From the sequence record MT446423.1: 64,000 bases of DNA, one strand, 5' to 3'. Position numbers and translations under genes: made by a program. Positions 2,424-38,517 of this stretch are shown in pieces. Within the stretch, counting starts at the first letter, position 1. Each line of letters starts with the position of its first letter. Under the pieces are notes generated by a model. It was given only the letters and a program-made list of their open reading frames with translations, did not search any database and was not told where the DNA came from. The stretch is from Escherichia virus TH58.

Positions 2424-3158
2424 ATGGAGCTAATCTTTTTAAGTGGCATCAAACGTAGCGGTAAAGACACTACTGCTGATTACATCAATTCAAACTTTAA
2501 GTCCGTAAAATACCAATTGGCATATCCGATTAAAGACGCTCTAGCAATAGCCTGGGGACGTAAACATGCTGAAAACCCTGATGTATTCACAGAGTTGAAA
2601 TACGAATACTTTGAAGGTGTTGGATACGACCGTGAAACACCATTAAATCTCAATAAGTTGGATGTTATTGAATTATTGGAAGAAGCGCTAATTTATTTAC
2701 AAAGTCAATATTTACCAATTAATAATGTTAAAGTATTATCATCATTAGAAGGTGGGTATTCATATCTAGATATTAAACCATATGAAGCCCTGCGTGAAGC
2801 TATAAATAATATCAACGACACATGGTCAATCCGCCGTCTTATGCAAGCCCTCGGTACGGATGTTGTCGTTAATTTATTTGACCGTATGTATTGGGTTAAA
2901 CTTTTTGCATTAAACTATATGGATTATATTGGAAGTGATTTCGATTACTATGTTGTAACCGATACACGCCAAGTCCATGAAATGGAAACCGCTAGAGCGA
3001 TGGGTGCTACAGTTATTCATGTGGTTCGCTCTGGTACGGAATCCACCGATAAACATATTACAGAAGCTGGGTTGCCTATTGAAGAAGGCGATTTAGTTAT
3101 TACAAACGACGGCTCTTTAGAAGAGCTTTATTCTAAAATTGAAACAATCTTAAGGTAA
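2424..3158 (+). CDS. 1: Deoxynucleoside monophosphate kinase gp1
   Basis: N-terminal P-loop LIFLSGIKRSGKDTTADYI; 244 aa; T4 gp1-like. Confidence 0.85.
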   Translation: MELIFLSGIKRSGKDTTADYINSNFKSVKYQLAYPIKDALAIAWGRKHAENPDVFTELKYEYFEGVGYDRETPLNLNKLDVIELLEEALIYLQSQYLPINNVKVLSSLEGGYSYLDIKPYEALREAINNINDTWSIRRLMQALGTDVVVNLFDRMYWVKLFALNYMDYIGSDFDYYVVTDTRQVHEMETARAMGATVIHVVRSGTESTDKHITEAGLPIEEGDLVITNDGSLEELYSKIETILR

Positions 3159-3162
3159 TAAA

Positions 3163-3848
<686 letters not shown>

Positions 3849-32789: not shown

Positions 32790-33215
32790 ATGAATATTTC
32801 TGAAACTCGCGGTAAATGGTTCAAGATTGTTAAAGAAGACGAAGAACTCCAATATAAGTTTCCTGAATTAAAGAAAGATACGATCATCAAGGTAATTGGT
32901 ACTACTGCCGAAGATGGTTATGGCGACCATGGAATTATCGAAGTGATGTTGAACACAGGTGAGAAACTTTGCATCTATGACCGTGATACTTCTCTTTGGT
33001 GCTTCTGGGAATCCCATTCAATAGATGAACTCGAAGAAATTGATTCGGCTGATATTGCTGGTGTGCTAGGTAGTAAACTTGGCGAATTCGAAGGTGAACG
33101 TATTTCTTATGCATTAGCTAAATTAGCCGGACAAGAAAATAACGACGGCTATGAAGGTAATCTGATGCAAGCCGCAGCGGAATACATTGAATATTTAGAA
33201 AGACGTTTAAGTTAA
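32790..33215 (+). CDS. Hypothetical acidic protein (at the T4 pin position)
   Basis: 141 aa immediately upstream of gene 49; identification by position only. Confidence 0.45.
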   Translation: MNISETRGKWFKIVKEDEELQYKFPELKKDTIIKVIGTTAEDGYGDHGIIEVMLNTGEKLCIYDRDTSLWCFWESHSIDELEEIDSADIAGVLGSKLGEFEGERISYALAKLAGQENNDGYEGNLMQAAAEYIEYLERRLS

Positions 33216-33250
33216 TAAATACCCTTATCTATTTAAGGTAAGGGTTTATC

Positions 33251-33724
33251 ATGTTATTATCAGGCGCAAAATATAAAGAAGAAAAACAAAAATTTTATGA
33301 TGCACAGAATGGTAAGTGTCCTATTTGCCACCGTGAATTAGACCCTGATGTTCAAGGTAACCATCTTGACCACGACCACGAATTAAACGGGCCAAAAGCA
33401 GGTAGAGTTCGTGGGTTACTCTGTAATCTGTGCAACGCAGCAGAAGGTCAAATGAAGCATAAGTTCAACCGTTCCGGTCTTAAAGGACGTGATGTTGACT
33501 ACCTCGAATGGCTTGAAGCTCTTCTTGCTTATTTGAAACAAGATTATTCTGATAATAATATCCATCCTAATTTTGTTCCAGACAAAACTAAAGAGTTCTC
33601 AAGACTAGGTAAAGAGGAAATGATGGCTGAGATGCTTCAAAGAGGATTTGAATATAATGAATCTGATACCAAAACACAATTAATAGCTTCATTCAAAAAG
33701 CAGCTTAGAAAGAGTTTAAAATGA
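33251..33724 (+). CDS. 49: Endonuclease VII (Holliday junction resolvase gp49)
   Basis: CPICHREL...HLDHDHELNGPKAGRVRGLLCNLCN zinc and HNH-like motif of T4 endo VII; 157 aa. Confidence 0.9.
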   Translation: MLLSGAKYKEEKQKFYDAQNGKCPICHRELDPDVQGNHLDHDHELNGPKAGRVRGLLCNLCNAAEGQMKHKFNRSGLKGRDVDYLEWLEALLAYLKQDYSDNNIHPNFVPDKTKEFSRLGKEEMMAEMLQRGFEYNESDTKTQLIASFKKQLRKSLK

Positions 33725-34258
33725 AAATTGAAAAAGAAATTGAAGGATTAATTCATAAAACTAATAAAGATCTTTTGAACGAGAATGCTAATAAAGATTC
33801 TCGTGTTTTTCCAACTCAACGGGACCTTATGGCTGGTATTGTGTCTAAGCACATTGCTAGAAATATGGTCCCGTCTTTTATTATGAAAGCACATGAAAGC
33901 GGAATTATCCATTTCCATGATATTGATTATTCCCCTGCTCTTCCGTTTACTAATTGCTGTTTAGTAGATTTAAAAGGAATGCTTGAGAATGGATTTAAAT
34001 TAGGCAATGCTCAAATTGAAACGCCTAAATCTATTGGCGTTGCTACTGCAATTATGGCACAAATTACTGCACAAGTTGCTTCACATCAGTACGGCGGAAC
34101 GACTTTTGCTAATGTAGATAAAGTACTTTCTCCTTATGTTAAACGCACCTATGCAAAACATATTGAGGATGCAGAAAAATGGCAAATCGCTGATGCGTTG
34201 AATTATGCCCAATCTAAAACAGAAAAAGACGTATACGATGCATTCCAAGCTTATGAGT
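33721..34258 (+). CDS. nrdD: Anaerobic ribonucleotide reductase NrdD, exon 1
   Basis: Frame continues to predicted 5' splice site after T34258 (P1: exon ATGAGT pairs with intron GCTCAT 34272-34277, U-G at splice site); in-frame TAA follows in intron. Confidence 0.75.
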
Positions 34259-34469
34259 TAATTTAATTCAGGCTCATGTAAAACCGGTCTAAACGGGGAA
34301 CCTCTCTAGTAGACAATCCCGTGCTAAATGTTCTTTTGAACTAAATGCCTAACGACTAACCGTGATGAATGTAGCGGTGTAGAATAGAAGCTAATGCTAT
34401 TCGAAACGGCCGGCATCGAAAGATGAAGATATAGTCTAATCTGCATGGCGACATGCAGCAGTCATCTTG

Positions 34470-34477
34470 TATAAATA
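34470..34477 (+). promoter_or_regulatory. Late promoter TATAAATA inside the intron, upstream of the homing endonuclease ORF
   Basis: Exact TATAAATA about 30 nt before the ATG at 34507. Confidence 0.45.
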
Positions 34478-34506
34478 AGATTATCTTATGAATACGAGGT
34501 GAAACA

Positions 34507-35277
34507 ATGAAATGGATAAAAAGACGTTGTACTAAAATAAAAGATAAAGACGCATTTACATACTTAGTTAAGTTTTCTAATGGCGACATTTATATCGGTT
34601 ATAAAAAATTTAGAACAATTAAAAACAAGCCCACAAACTGGAAAACTTACACAACGTCATCTAAGTATATAAATGAACGCTTAAAAACTGATACACCTAC
34701 TAAATGGATAATTTTAAAAACATTTGATAGTTATAAAGACGCATTAAAACATGAAGAAGAGGTCATACGTAAATATTTTTATAACAAAAAATGTTTAAAT
34801 AAATCCATAGGCGGTAAAAAGTTTTATAAGCATCCGGATACTGAAGAACATATTCAAAAATTAAGAGATGCTCATAAGGGTAAAGTGTTATCCGAATCTC
34901 ATAAAAACAATATAAAATCTTCTGTAGCTGAATATTATGCTAAAAACGGAAGATCTAAGGAACATGTGCAAAATAATATCAATAGTCGAAAAAGTAAAAA
35001 ACAAGTATCGATAAAGCTTAAAAATAAAACTTTTAGAAGTTTTAAAAAAGCGGCGGAATATTTAAATTGCACTGAAAGTGAAGTCGAAACTCATCCTCTT
35101 GTTTTGAGTATTAAGACTACTATTCATAAAGTTCCTGAATATGTGGTTGTTGACGGTATTAAGTATACGTCTTATATAGAAGCAGCTAAAGCGCTAAATT
35201 TTCATCCTAGCACTATAAAAGAACGTTGCATATCTATGGACTATCCAAATTTTGTTGTTTCATATAAACGGGCATGA
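34507..35277 (+). CDS. Intron-encoded GIY-YIG homing endonuclease (I-TevII-like)
   Basis: N-terminal FTYLVKFSNGDIYIGYKK (GIY-YIG), NUMOD-like repeats, C-terminal HTH-like tail; 256 aa; GAGGTGA RBS. Confidence 0.75.
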   Translation: MKWIKRRCTKIKDKDAFTYLVKFSNGDIYIGYKKFRTIKNKPTNWKTYTTSSKYINERLKTDTPTKWIILKTFDSYKDALKHEEEVIRKYFYNKKCLNKSIGGKKFYKHPDTEEHIQKLRDAHKGKVLSESHKNNIKSSVAEYYAKNGRSKEHVQNNINSRKSKKQVSIKLKNKTFRSFKKAAEYLNCTESEVETHPLVLSIKTTIHKVPEYVVVDGIKYTSYIEAAKALNFHPSTIKERCISMDYPNFVVSYKRA

Positions 35278-35291
35278 ATTTGCGACTCATG

Positions 35292-36583
35292 CTGAATATA
35301 ATGATGAAGTAAATACACTTTTCAGCTCTAATGGACAAACGCCTTTTGTAACAATTACATTTGGAACAGGAACTGACTGGACTGAACGAATGATTCAAAA
35401 AGCAATTCTGAAAAATCGTATTAAAGGTCTTGGACGTGACGGGATAACTCCTATTTTCCCTAAACTTGTTATGTTCGTTGAAGAAGGTGTTAATCTTTAT
35501 AAAGACGACCCGAACTACGATATTAAGCAGCTTGCTCTAGAGTGTGCAAGCAAAAGAATGTATCCTGATATTATTTCGGTTAAGAATAATAAAACTATCA
35601 CCGGTTCTTCAGTTCCTGTTTCTCCAATGGGCTGCCGTAGTTTCTTGAGCGTATGGAAAGATTCGACTGGTAATGAAATTCTTGATGGACGTAATAATCT
35701 TGGCGTTGTAACACTGAATCTTCCTCGTATTGCATTAGATTCTTATATTGGAACACAATTCAATGAACAGAAATTTGTTGAGTTATTTAATGAACGAATG
35801 GATCTGTGTTTTGAAGCCTTGATGTGTAGAATTAGTTCCTTAAAAGGAGTTAAAGCGACTGTTGCTCCTATTCTTTATCAAGAAGGTGCATTTGGGGTTC
35901 GTCTTAAACCTGATGATGACATAATTGAGTTATTTAAAAACGGTAGAAGTTCGGTGTCTTTAGGATACATTGGTATTCATGAATTGAATATTCTTGTCGG
36001 ACGTGATATTGGGCAAGAAATTTTAACTAAAATGAATGCTCGTCTTAAGCAGTGGACTGAAAGAACTGGTTTTGCTTTTAGCTTGTATTCTACTCCCGCT
36101 GAAAACCTTTGTTATCGCTTCTGTAAACTTGATACCGAGAAATATGGAAGTGTAAAAGATGTTACTGATAAAGGCTGGTACACTAATAGTTTCCATGTTT
36201 CAGTAGAAGAAAATATCACTCCGTTTGAAAAGATTTCTCGCGAAGCACCATATCATTTCATTGCGACCGGCGGACACATTTCTTATGTTGAACTTCCTGA
36301 TATGAAAAATAACTTAAAAGGACTTGAGGCTGTATGGGATTATGCCGCACAACATTTAGATTATTTTGGTGTTAATATGCCAGTAGATAAATGTTTTACA
36401 TGTGGAAGTACCCATGAAATGACTCCTACCGAAAACGGATTTGTTTGTTCTATTTGTGGAGAAACTGATCCTAAAAAGATGAACACAATAAGAAGAACAT
36501 GCGGTTATCTCGGAACTCCTAGCGTTGTTCCGTGGAATTTAGGTAAAATGAAAGAAATGGTAAAACGAGTAAAACATGCATAG
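35292..36583 (+). CDS. nrdD: Anaerobic ribonucleotide reductase NrdD, exon 2
   Basis: Contains C-terminal glycyl-radical motif RRTCGYLG and Cys-rich zinc site CFTCGSTHEMTPTENGFVCSICG; spliced product about 609 aa. Confidence 0.8.
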
Positions 36584-37406
36584 GTATTATATAATTTATA
36601 AAATAACAAATATAATTAATTCAAAGGAATATATCGGTGCGCATAGCACCGATAACATAAATGACGGTTATATGGGGTCAGGAACATTGATTCGTGCCGC
36701 TTTATTAAAATATGGTAGAAAAAATTTTAATAAAGAAATTTTACATGTTTTTGATAATGAAAAACAAATGTATGATAAAGAAGCTGAACTTGTAACCGAA
36801 GAGTATTGTCTAAAAGAAAATACATATAATATTAAACCTGGTGGAAAAGGTGGAACTGCCTATGAACAGACACTTGAACATCGCCGCAAAAATAGTTTAG
36901 CAAATAAAGGTAAAAAGAGAACAGAAGAAACTAAAATAGCTATTTCACGTGCTTTAAAGAAATATAAACGTACGCCAGAGCATCAAGCAAATTTAAATAA
37001 AGCCGTAAGCATAGCTATGAAGCGAAAAGATGTTAGAAGTAAATTAGCTGGAGAGCGGTCTGAGAAAGATAAATTATCTATATCAAACGGTGTTAAAAAA
37101 TATTACAATTCTTTGAGTGAAGAAGAACGCGAACTTCATCGCAAGCGAATTATTGAAGGTAAAAAGAATTCTCCCATGTCATTGGAATCTAGACAAAAGC
37201 TTTCAAAAGCTTTAAAAGGACTTCAAGTTGGTTCAAAAAATCCAATGTATGGAAAAATTTCTCCGACTAGCAAAACCGTTTCAGTTGACGGTATTAAATA
37301 TGATTCAATTAAAAAGTGCTCAAATGCCATAAAAGTTTCTAGACATCTTATACTAAAACGCTGTAATTCTACTGATGAAGCTTGGAAAAATTGGGTATTA
37401 TTATGA
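36576..37406 (+). CDS. Free-standing GIY-YIG homing endonuclease (seg-like)
   Basis: YYIIYKITNIINSKEYIGAHS...YMGSGTLIRAALLKYGRKNF; NUMOD3-like repeats; overlaps nrdD stop and nrdG start (ATGA at both ends). Confidence 0.75.
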   Translation: MHRYYIIYKITNIINSKEYIGAHSTDNINDGYMGSGTLIRAALLKYGRKNFNKEILHVFDNEKQMYDKEAELVTEEYCLKENTYNIKPGGKGGTAYEQTLEHRRKNSLANKGKKRTEETKIAISRALKKYKRTPEHQANLNKAVSIAMKRKDVRSKLAGERSEKDKLSISNGVKKYYNSLSEEERELHRKRIIEGKKNSPMSLESRQKLSKALKGLQVGSKNPMYGKISPTSKTVSVDGIKYDSIKKCSNAIKVSRHLILKRCNSTDEAWKNWVLL

Positions 37407-37873
37407 ATTATGATAGATTTTATCCTTGCGATTTTGTGAATGGTCCTGGTTGCAGGGTTGTTCTTTTCGTTACAGGGTGTTTGCATAAATGCGAAGGGTG
37501 TTATAATAAATCAACATGGAATGCTAGAAATGGTATTCCATTCACTGGTGAAACACTAGAGCAATTAATTGAATGTTTGAATAATGATTATATAGAAGGA
37601 TTAACTATAACTGGAGGAGACCCTCTCTATCCTGATAACCGAGATGTTGTTCATTGCATCGTTCAAACAGTAAAAAATCTTTGTCCCAATAAAAGCATTT
37701 GGTTATGGACAGGATATAAGTTTGAAGATATTAAACAACTAGAAATGCTTAAATATGTTGATGTTATTATTGATGGGAAGTATGAGAAAAATCTTCCGAC
37801 CAAAAAACTGTGGCGAGGATCAGATAATCAGCGACTTTGGTCAAATACCGATGGGGTGTGGAAACATGATTAA
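37403..37873 (+). CDS. nrdG: Anaerobic ribonucleotide reductase activating protein NrdG
   Basis: Radical-SAM-like CxxxCxxC (CLHKCEGC) near the N-terminus; 156 aa. Confidence 0.85.
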   Translation: MNYDRFYPCDFVNGPGCRVVLFVTGCLHKCEGCYNKSTWNARNGIPFTGETLEQLIECLNNDYIEGLTITGGDPLYPDNRDVVHCIVQTVKNLCPNKSIWLWTGYKFEDIKQLEMLKYVDVIIDGKYEKNLPTKKLWRGSDNQRLWSNTDGVWKHD

Positions 37874-37987
37874 ATTGAATTATATTATGGATACTATAAA
37901 TGATATGATTTTTCATTTTGGTCCAGAATTTTATTCGCAGTATAGTTTGGTGTTTATCAATGTTTGGTTAATCAATTAAGGGTAAAT

Positions 37988-38203
37988 ATGTATAAATTTC
38001 GTAAAGGTTTAGCTGATTTTCTTACAACTGTAACGTTCTTTTTGTTTATGGCAGTTGGAGCTATTTTTCTTATTCCTTTTACTGTTGTATTTTTCGTGAT
38101 TAGTTTAATTTCTCCTGAAAAGGGTTTATCCTCCAGCGAATTCAATGAACGTTTGGACAAAATTACTAATAAACTGAATTCTGTTCTTGATAAAAAGGCT
38201 TAA
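37988..38203 (+). CDS. Small membrane protein
   Basis: ATG 37988 after AAGGG; single long TM segment. Confidence 0.5.
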   Translation: MYKFRKGLADFLTTVTFFLFMAVGAIFLIPFTVVFFVISLISPEKGLSSSEFNERLDKITNKLNSVLDKKA

Positions 38204-38205
38204 TT

Positions 38206-38517
38206 ATGATTAGATTTGAAGAATATGTTGTAACAAAATGGAATGAATGGGACAAGTTCGGTGATGAATGGTATTTCCATGATTGTGACCTGAACCCAGA
38301 GTTCTTTGTCGGTAAAGAAGACGACCTTAAAGACATCTATGCGTTGTCTGAGATTCATGGTATTAAGCCTACGGTTTATTTCAGCTTCGACGATACCGGA
38401 TTCCTTATCCAGGTTTATGTTCCTTATGAAACCGTTGATGAAGAAGCTGTTTGCGAAGAAGTTCTAAAAACCTGGAACTATCAAGGGGTAATTTCCTGTG
38501 GGTCAAAACTTAATTGA
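38206..38517 (+). CDS. Hypothetical acidic protein
   Basis: 103 aa. Confidence 0.5.
   Translation: MIRFEEYVVTKWNEWDKFGDEWYFHDCDLNPEFFVGKEDDLKDIYALSEIHGIKPTVYFSFDDTGFLIQVYVPYETVDEEAVCEEVLKTWNYQGVISCGSKLN

What the first reader, a model, noticed from the sequence alone, without database searches (positions are those of the whole stretch)
36576..37406. Free-standing GIY-YIG homing endonuclease wedged between nrdD and nrdG, overlapping both
A seg-like GIY-YIG ORF starts inside the last codons of nrdD and its stop overlaps the nrdG start codon (ATGA at both ends). Together with the intron endonuclease this makes the nrdD-nrdG junction a hotspot for mobile endonucleases, likely mediating marker exclusion against related phages.
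Basis: partly seen in the sequence, partly recalled or inferred. Interest (0 to 1): 0.5.

Follow-up and report, generated by a model that had tools for sequence, protein, structure and literature searches.

The report
SegH homing endonuclease gene, already known

Summary
The ORF at 36576..37406 (+, 276 aa) is real and lies exactly between nrdD and nrdG. One detail is wrong. The 3' overlap with nrdG is ATGA, but the 5' overlap with nrdD is 8 nt (ATGCATAG). The protein is 99.6% identical over its full length to the SegH deposited for phage RB3 (AY262138.2, nrdD-segH-nrdG) and 97.8% identical to T6 SegH. Its N-terminal 94 residues model confidently as a GIY-YIG fold, and the best PDB matches are the I-TevI catalytic domain. 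A NUMOD3 motif and a sub-threshold I-TevI-type DNA-binding tail follow. Of 838 phage records matching the junction, 69 carry segH. Most are empty, with nrdD TGA overlapping nrdG ATG directly. T4 has the HNH gene mobC at the same place, and one phage (PD112) has an internally deleted segH. All four combinations of nrdD intron and segH presence or absence occur. A diverged last 64 nt of nrdD accompanied segH in all 9 segH-bearing sequences I aligned. Most carriers also have a diverged nrdG head, but this window, like LZ2, has the T2-type head. Verdict: a correctly recognised, already characterised mobile homing endonuclease gene. Low interest.

The parts
36576..37406 (+). segH coding sequence (276 codons plus TGA)
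   Evidence: ORF list and sequence. 99.6% identity over 276 aa to SegH of RB3. Differs from RB3, F2, C2-3, RB6, KIT06 and EC128 only at V274 (I in the others).
36576..36857 (+). GIY-YIG catalytic domain (residues 1-94)
   Evidence: pLDDT 94-98, topology beta-beta-alpha-beta-alpha. Top three PDB fold matches are the I-TevI catalytic domain 1MK0/1LN0: prob 1.00, TM 0.61 normalised by target length, best E 4e-3 (no match reaches E<=0.001). Profile hits to 1MK0/1LN0. Y8, Y19, G21, E69 and N85 are invariant in 34 homologues.
37173..37259 (+). NUMOD3 DNA-binding motif (residues 200-228)
   Evidence: Pfam PF07460, 33.8 bits against a cutoff of 20.4.
37251..37394 (+). putative I-TevI-type C-terminal DNA-binding domain (residues 226-273)
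   Evidence: Pfam PF20987, 21.1 bits, below the cutoff of 27. TIGR01453 aligns residues 7-274. Low model confidence in this stretch.
36576..36583 (+). 8-nt overlap ATGCATAG of the segH start with the nrdD end
   Evidence: Sequence.
37403..37406 (+). ATGA overlap of the segH stop with the nrdG start. It reproduces the native nrdD/nrdG ATGA junction of segH-less phages.
   Evidence: The T2 empty site reads CAATGAATT.
36520..36583 (+). diverged 3' end of nrdD shared by all 9 segH-bearing sequences aligned (NrdD tail GTPSVVPWNLGKMKEMVKRVKHA against GNPNERGFNLGKNKEIMHRVKHQ in T2/T4)
   Evidence: Alignments. The blastn match to T2 nrdD stops at 36519.
35304..36583 (+). nrdD exon 2
   Evidence: Pfam NRDD and Gly_radical. 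Alignment to intron-less T2 nrdD.
33721..34258 (+). nrdD exon 1
   Evidence: Pfam NRDD. Alignment to T2 nrdD; boundary accurate to about 2 nt.
34507..35277 (+). intron-encoded GIY-YIG endonuclease, an I-TevII homologue (context, not part of segH)
   Evidence: 56% identity over the full length to T4 I-TevII. The late-promoter motif TATAAATA at 34470-34477 lies just upstream.
37403..37873 (+). nrdG (anaerobic RNR activase), with a T2-type 5' end
   Evidence: Pfam Fer4_12 and Radical_SAM. Flank comparison.

Best explanation
This is segH, a free-standing GIY-YIG homing endonuclease gene of T-even phages. No promoter-like or late-promoter signal precedes it, so it is probably transcribed with nrdD and nrdG. 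It is probably translated at a low level by re-initiation or coupling at the 8-nt overlap with nrdD. Its own stop preserves the ATGA coupling to nrdG, so the host operon stays functional. By analogy with I-TevI, the C-terminal NUMOD3 motif and helix-turn-helix-like tail would bind a long DNA target near the nrdD/nrdG junction, and the N-terminal GIY-YIG domain would make a double-strand break. In a mixed infection with a segH-less relative, the broken chromosome would be repaired from the segH-bearing one. That copies segH and adjacent markers into the recipient (homing with co-conversion). Shown here: gene identity, domain anatomy, sporadic presence at one precise site, linked flanking blocks, and a decayed copy. 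Inferred or taken from the literature: cleavage, homing and the mode of expression.
For: Identity: 99.6% over 276 aa to SegH in AY262138.2 (RB3 nrdD-segH-nrdG), 97.8% to T6 segH, and an LZ2 segH record also matches. Domain: GIY-YIG fold model, with the I-TevI catalytic domain as the top PDB fold and profile hit. NUMOD3 is above the Pfam cutoff. PHROG 314 homing endonuclease, E=2.8e-60. TIGR01453, E=2.7e-13. Mobility signature: 69 of 838 junction-matching records have segH. The rest are mostly empty sites 823 bp shorter, or carry mobC. All four intron/segH combinations exist. PD112 has an in-frame deleted remnant. A diverged nrdD tail is linked to segH in all 9 carriers aligned. A diverged nrdG head is present in 59 of 69 carriers, with crossovers at the segH/nrdG border in the others, this window included. 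Literature: mobC lies between nrdD and nrdG in T4 and is replaced by GIY-YIG segH in relatives (PMC2988022 Table 1; bioRxiv 10.1101/2022.08.31.505936, citing Sandegren et al. 2005, NAR 33:6203).
Against: No activity can be measured here. The protein itself does not reach the Pfam cutoffs for a GIY-YIG model (SegE_GIY-YIG 18.6 against 25; no PF01541 hit) or for the I-TevI DNA-binding domain. No clear counterpart of the I-TevI catalytic Arg27 appears in the profile alignment. A single-sequence search of PDB sequences finds nothing meaningful. The original SegH paper could not be read, so the mapped cleavage site is not cited.
Confidence: 0.93

Rival explanations
1. The gene is an intact-looking but functionally retired or domesticated copy. 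It no longer homes and persists only because deleting it would disturb nrdD termination and nrdG translational coupling, or because it serves the phage in another way (for example exclusion of competitors without self-propagation).
For: Homing endonuclease genes do decay at this locus, as the PD112 remnant shows. The gene is embedded in both neighbours' translation signals. It carries one private substitution, V274 in place of I, in the DNA-binding tail.
Against: The full-length ORF has all invariant catalytic-domain residues. It differs by one conservative residue from the RB3 SegH that was reported active. Its patchy distribution and recombinant flanks indicate recent movement.
Confidence: 0.05
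2. The ORF is a chance open frame or a mis-called gene in an AT-rich intergenic insert.
For: None beyond the lack of an obvious promoter or a strong Shine-Dalgarno sequence.
Against: 545 homologues, a confident fold model, conservation of the intact frame in 8 examined phages, and curated segH annotations.
Confidence: 0.01

Closest known systems
SegH of phages RB3, T6 and LZ2 (Sandegren, Nord and Sjoberg 2005, NAR 33:6203; GenBank AY262137-AY262139)
   Same: Same gene: 99.6% (RB3) and 97.8% (T6) protein identity. Same position between nrdD and nrdG. Same 8-nt and 4-nt overlaps. Same diverged nrdD tail.
   Different: One residue differs (V274 against I274). The nrdG 5' end is of the T2/LZ2 type rather than the RB3/T6 type.
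T4 MobC (HNH free-standing endonuclease gene between nrdD and nrdG)
   Same: Occupies the same nrdD/nrdG junction in the same orientation, and overlaps both neighbours (PMC2988022 Table 1).
   Different: Unrelated HNH protein. It is inserted a few codons into nrdG and starts with a duplicated NrdG N-terminus, MNYDRIY. No activity has been reported for it (PMC2988022).
I-TevI (td intron GIY-YIG endonuclease; PDB 1MK0/1LN0; TIGR01453)
   Same: Same modular plan: an N-terminal GIY-YIG domain of about 95 aa, a NUMOD-containing linker, and a C-terminal DNA-binding tail.
   Different: SegH is free-standing, not intron-encoded. About 23-26% identity in the catalytic domain. Below the TIGR01453 and PF20987 cutoffs.
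T4 SegD and other Seg proteins (SegA-G)
   Same: Same Seg-type GIY-YIG subfamily, with the YxGSG motif. T4 SegD is the nearest T4 paralogue at 29.5% identity.
   Different: Different loci and presumably different targets. RB-series genome records mislabel segH as segD.
I-TevII (nrdD intron endonuclease)
   Same: A GIY-YIG enzyme targeting the same operon, and present in this window as a 56%-identical homologue. 29% identity to SegH across the C-terminal four-fifths of the protein (SegH residues 55-275).
   Different: Intron-encoded, with its own late promoter motif. It is gained and lost independently of segH.

Membership tests
SegH (free-standing homing endonuclease of T-even phages) | Sequence identity to the reference SegH proteins | tested here: met
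   99.6% over 276 aa to ABI48949.1 (RB3) and 97.8% to T6.
SegH (free-standing homing endonuclease of T-even phages) | Location between nrdD and nrdG, in the same orientation and not within an intron | tested here: met
   The empty sites show a direct nrdD/nrdG junction 823 bp shorter.
SegH (free-standing homing endonuclease of T-even phages) | Sporadic presence among close relatives | tested here: met
   69 of 838 records carry it. There is one decayed copy, and both flanks are recombinant.
SegH (free-standing homing endonuclease of T-even phages) | Site-specific DNA cleavage close to its own gene | not testable with these tools
   Reported by Sandegren et al. 2005 (abstract, from my own knowledge). 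The paper is not held.
SegH (free-standing homing endonuclease of T-even phages) | Homing into segH-less phages in mixed infection | not testable with these tools
   Reported by Sandegren et al. 2005 (abstract, from my own knowledge).
GIY-YIG nuclease superfamily | GIY and YIG motifs about 10 residues apart at the N-terminus | tested here: met
   IIY at residues 6-8 and YIG at 19-21. Y8, Y19 and G21 are invariant.
GIY-YIG nuclease superfamily | Three-stranded sheet with flanking helices, superposable on a solved GIY-YIG domain | tested here: met
   pLDDT above 94 for residues 1-94. 1MK0/1LN0 are the top hits, prob 1.00, TM 0.61 normalised by target length, best E 4e-3.
GIY-YIG nuclease superfamily | Conserved catalytic Glu and Asn | tested here: met
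   E69 and N85 are invariant in 34 homologues. The HMM register to I-TevI E75 is off by one.
GIY-YIG nuclease superfamily | Conserved catalytic Arg (R27 of I-TevI) | tested here: inconclusive
   The I-TevI segment holding R27 falls in an insertion relative to the SegH profile. Only a variable K/R near residues 39-41 and a nearly invariant H23 are candidates.
GIY-YIG nuclease superfamily | Pfam GIY-YIG model above the gathering score | tested here: not met
   PF19835 scores 18.6 bits against a cutoff of 25, and PF01541 gives no hit for this protein. Many homologues do carry PF01541 or PF19835.
I-TevI-like group I intron endonucleases (TIGR01453) | Model score above the curated cutoff | tested here: not met
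   50.4 bits against 56.05, E=2.7e-13, aligned over residues 7-274.
I-TevI-like group I intron endonucleases (TIGR01453) | Encoded inside a group I intron | tested here: not met
   It lies between two genes. No Rfam match, and the empty site is a plain gene junction.
I-TevI-like group I intron endonucleases (TIGR01453) | NUMOD3 motif and a C-terminal I-TevI-type DNA-binding domain | tested here: inconclusive
   NUMOD3 is met (33.8 against 20.4). PF20987 is sub-threshold (21.1 against 27), and the model is poor for residues 231-276.

The most novel reading that the evidence does not exclude
The two diverged blocks that flank segH are the last 64 nt of nrdD and, in most carriers, the first ~26 nt of nrdG. 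Together they could be the halves of the SegH target, carried along as a partially protective allele. This window and the LZ2/HY03 group would then be natural recombinants that keep a sensitive-type nrdG half. That would locate the functional target or crossover point to within a few tens of bases and could explain the reported self-cleavage. In addition, the segH start ATGCATAGG may be the captured native nrdD Met-His-Arg codons, which would mark the ancestral insertion point.
Probability: 0.25. Interest if true: 0.3.

Novelty: already known. Interest (0 to 1): 0.1.

Why it matters
This instance adds little. It is one more copy of a homing endonuclease gene characterised in 2005. It illustrates well the life cycle of such genes in T-even phages at one site: invasion, co-conversion of flanks, replacement by an unrelated endonuclease gene, and decay. 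The practical value is for annotation. Several deposited genomes call this gene segD, give it a truncated start, or label it hypothetical. The comparison of flanks across 69 carriers could help define the SegH target and co-conversion tract.

Tried and rejected
A single-sequence phmmer search against PDB sequences gave only chance hits. The profile search and the fold search were needed to reach I-TevI.

Rfam at gathering threshold found no group I intron or any other RNA family in 33000-38500. I therefore placed the intron by alignment to intron-less T2 nrdD.

The sigma-70 promoter scan and the T4 late-promoter motif TATAAATA gave nothing in or just upstream of segH. A TGCTTTA MotA-box-like string inside segH lacks a correctly spaced -10, judged by eye. 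I therefore treat segH as a promoter-less cassette.

RNA folding around the start codon showed no stable structure sequestering it (z = -1.97, carried mainly by a hairpin at 36632-36654).

I tested whether the Jiaodavirus endonuclease at the same junction is a SegH relative. It is not; it is HNH-like.

The original SegH paper could not be retrieved by PMC id or DOI. The other papers I checked hold it only in their reference lists. Only the T4 mobile-DNA review (PMC2988022) and the bioRxiv preprint discuss the locus in their text.

Full report
**Observation**

The window is a T4-like (Tequatrovirus) phage segment. The gene order is nrdC, endonuclease VII (gene 49), nrdD exon 1, intron, nrdD exon 2, the ORF in question, nrdG. 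The ORF runs 36576..37406 on the + strand and encodes 276 aa.

The nrdD stop codon TAG is at 36581-36583, so the ORF's ATG (36576-36578) lies 8 nt inside nrdD. The shared string is ATGCATAG. At the other end the nrdG ATG (37403-37405) and the ORF's TGA (37404-37406) do form ATGA. The observation therefore holds except for that one detail.

**Identity**

A tblastn search of the phage collection gives 99.6% identity over all 276 residues to the segH CDS of GenBank AY262138.2. That record is titled 'Bacteriophage RB3 NrdD gene, partial cds; SegH gene, complete cds; and NrdG gene, partial cds'. T6 segH is 97.8% identical, and an LZ2 segH record (AY262139.2) also matches.

Direct comparison shows that the window's protein differs from the SegH of RB3, F2, C2-3, RB6, KIT06 and EC128 only at residue 274 (V instead of I). 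The frame is intact in all of them.

The literature held here confirms the locus. T4 mobC is listed as inserted at nrdG/nrdD (PMC2988022, Table 1). [quoted passage not shown] Both cite Sandegren, Nord and Sjoberg 2005, NAR 33:6203. That paper is not held. From my own knowledge of its abstract, SegH cleaves DNA close to its own gene, cleaves both segH-containing and segH-less DNA, and homes between phages in mixed infections.

**Protein anatomy**

- Pfam places NUMOD3 above its cutoff (33.8 against 20.4 bits). The I-TevI DNA-binding domain (21.1 against 27) and SegE_GIY-YIG (18.6 against 25) fall below their cutoffs.
- PHROG 314 'homing endonuclease' matches at E=2.8e-60.
- TIGR01453 'group I intron endonuclease' aligns residues 7-274 at E=2.7e-13, but scores 50.4 bits against a cutoff of 56.05.
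- In an alignment of 34 homologues, Y8, Y19, G21, Y32, G34, S35, G36, E69 and N85 are among the 18 invariant residues.
- A profile of that alignment finds only the I-TevI catalytic domain (1MK0, 1LN0) among PDB sequences, at marginal E-values of 0.029 and 0.063.
- The AlphaFold model has pLDDT 94-98 over residues 1-94, with beta-beta-alpha-beta-alpha topology.
- Its top three Foldseek PDB matches are again 1MK0/1LN0: probability 1.00, TM 0.61 normalised by target length, best E 4e-3, so no match reaches E<=0.001.
- The catalytic Arg of I-TevI (R27) has no clear counterpart in the alignment. I leave that feature as inconclusive.
- The C-terminal 45 residues model poorly.

**Distribution**

I queried with 400 bp of nrdD, segH and 400 bp of nrdG. 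This matched 838 phage records, of which 69 cover at least 80% of the query and so carry segH.

- In the evenly spaced sample of 60 listed records, most span 808 bp instead of 1631. These are empty sites. In T2, for example, the nrdD TGA overlaps the nrdG ATG directly as CAATGAATT.
- T4-type records span 1430 bp and carry mobC.
- A Jiaodavirus carries an unrelated HNH gene at the junction.
- PD112 has an in-frame internal deletion of segH between two AAATATG repeats. It leaves a 79-residue remnant without E69 or N85.
- All four combinations of the nrdD intron and segH occur: this window (+/+), PNJ-6-type (+/-), T6 (-/+) and T2 (-/-). The two elements therefore come and go independently.

It is clearly not met.

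**Flanks**

All 9 segH-bearing sequences I aligned share a strongly diverged last 64 nt of nrdD (36520-36583). The resulting NrdD tail is GTPSVVPWNLGKMKEMVKRVKHA, against GNPNERGFNLGKNKEIMHRVKHQ in T2 and T4. Upstream of that block they are nearly identical to T2 and T4.

About 59 of the 69 carriers also have a diverged first ~26 nt of nrdG (MNYDRIYPCCF). Ten records have the T2-type head (MNYDRFYPCDF): LZ2, HY03 (two records), moha, C2-3 and five Pu-Krd-SF phages. This window has the same T2-type head. The window is therefore a recombinant of the LZ2 type, with a crossover at the segH/nrdG border. This is what co-conversion tracts of variable length would leave.

The segH start ATGCATAGG is identical to the native nrdD codons ATG CAT AGG (Met-His-Arg), which lie 16 nt upstream of the nrdD stop in T2 and T4. 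This may mark the ancestral insertion point, or it may be coincidence.

The ATGA at the segH/nrdG border reproduces the native nrdD/nrdG coupling signal.

**Expression (inferred)**

No sigma-70-like site and no T4 late-promoter motif lies in or just before segH. No stable RNA structure hides its start codon.

The gene is therefore most likely a promoter-less cassette read from nrdD transcripts and translated by re-initiation at the 8-nt overlap. This matches what PMC2988022 discusses for other overlapping free-standing endonuclease genes.

**Mechanism and verdict**

The best explanation is SegH homing (confidence 0.93). The C-terminal NUMOD3 and helix-turn-helix-like module would bind the nrdD/nrdG junction region. 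The GIY-YIG domain would cut. Recombinational repair from the segH-bearing genome would then copy segH and its neighbouring markers into the cut genome.

Rival readings are a retired or domesticated copy (0.05) and a chance ORF (0.01).

However, the gene is already named, sequenced from three phages, biochemically characterised and widely annotated. Novelty: already known. Interest: low.

Noticed in passing
window 34507-35277 (with 34470-34477 and intron ~34259-35303): The nrdD intron ORF is only 56% identical to T4 I-TevII over its full length, so it is a markedly divergent allele. An exact TATAAATA late-promoter motif sits 30 nt upstream. Rfam reports no group I intron at gathering threshold for this ORF-bearing intron.
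   Followed up: partly
L005 (phage PD112) 701-940: segH has an in-frame internal deletion between two AAATATG repeats. It leaves a 79-aa remnant that lacks the catalytic Glu and Asn: a decaying homing endonuclease gene at the same site.
   Followed up: yes
L011 (Klebsiella phage KLB27, Slopekvirus) 2459-3310: A 47%-identical SegH-like gene lies immediately downstream of nrdD in a different genus, separated from nrdG by four other ORFs. This suggests the SegH lineage tracks the nrdD 3' end.
   Followed up: partly
L004 705-1337 (T4 mobC) and L012 1106-1942 (Jiaodavirus HNH gene): Both HNH genes at the nrdD/nrdG junction begin with a duplicated NrdG N-terminus (MNYDRIY... and MNFDRIYPSDFVN...). 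They apparently inserted a few codons into nrdG and captured its start signal.
   Followed up: partly
window 37407-37432, compared with L002, L006, L008-L010: The window's nrdG 5' end is of the segH-less T2 type (MNYDRFYPCDF). About 59 of the 69 segH carriers have a diverged head (MNYDRIYPCCF), which is also seen in a Jiaodavirus nrdG. A recombination breakpoint therefore sits at the segH/nrdG border.
   Followed up: yes
window 36576-36584, compared with L003 685-693: The segH start ATGCATAGG equals the native nrdD codons Met-His-Arg found 16 nt before the nrdD stop in T2 and T4. It may be a relic of the original insertion event, or it may be chance.
   Followed up: no
window 36632-36654: A perfect 9-bp hairpin (TATCGGTGC-GCATA-GCACCGATA) lies inside segH over the YIG-motif codons, and it is the only robust local RNA or DNA structure. 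Its function is unknown.
   Followed up: no
L001 4973-5707 (F2); L008 797-1531 (RB6); RB3/5/7/9/10 genome records: Annotation errors in public records. The RB-series genomes label this gene segD. F2 and RB6 call a truncated internal start although the full 276-codon frame is intact. RB6 and PD112 also truncate nrdG.
   Followed up: yes
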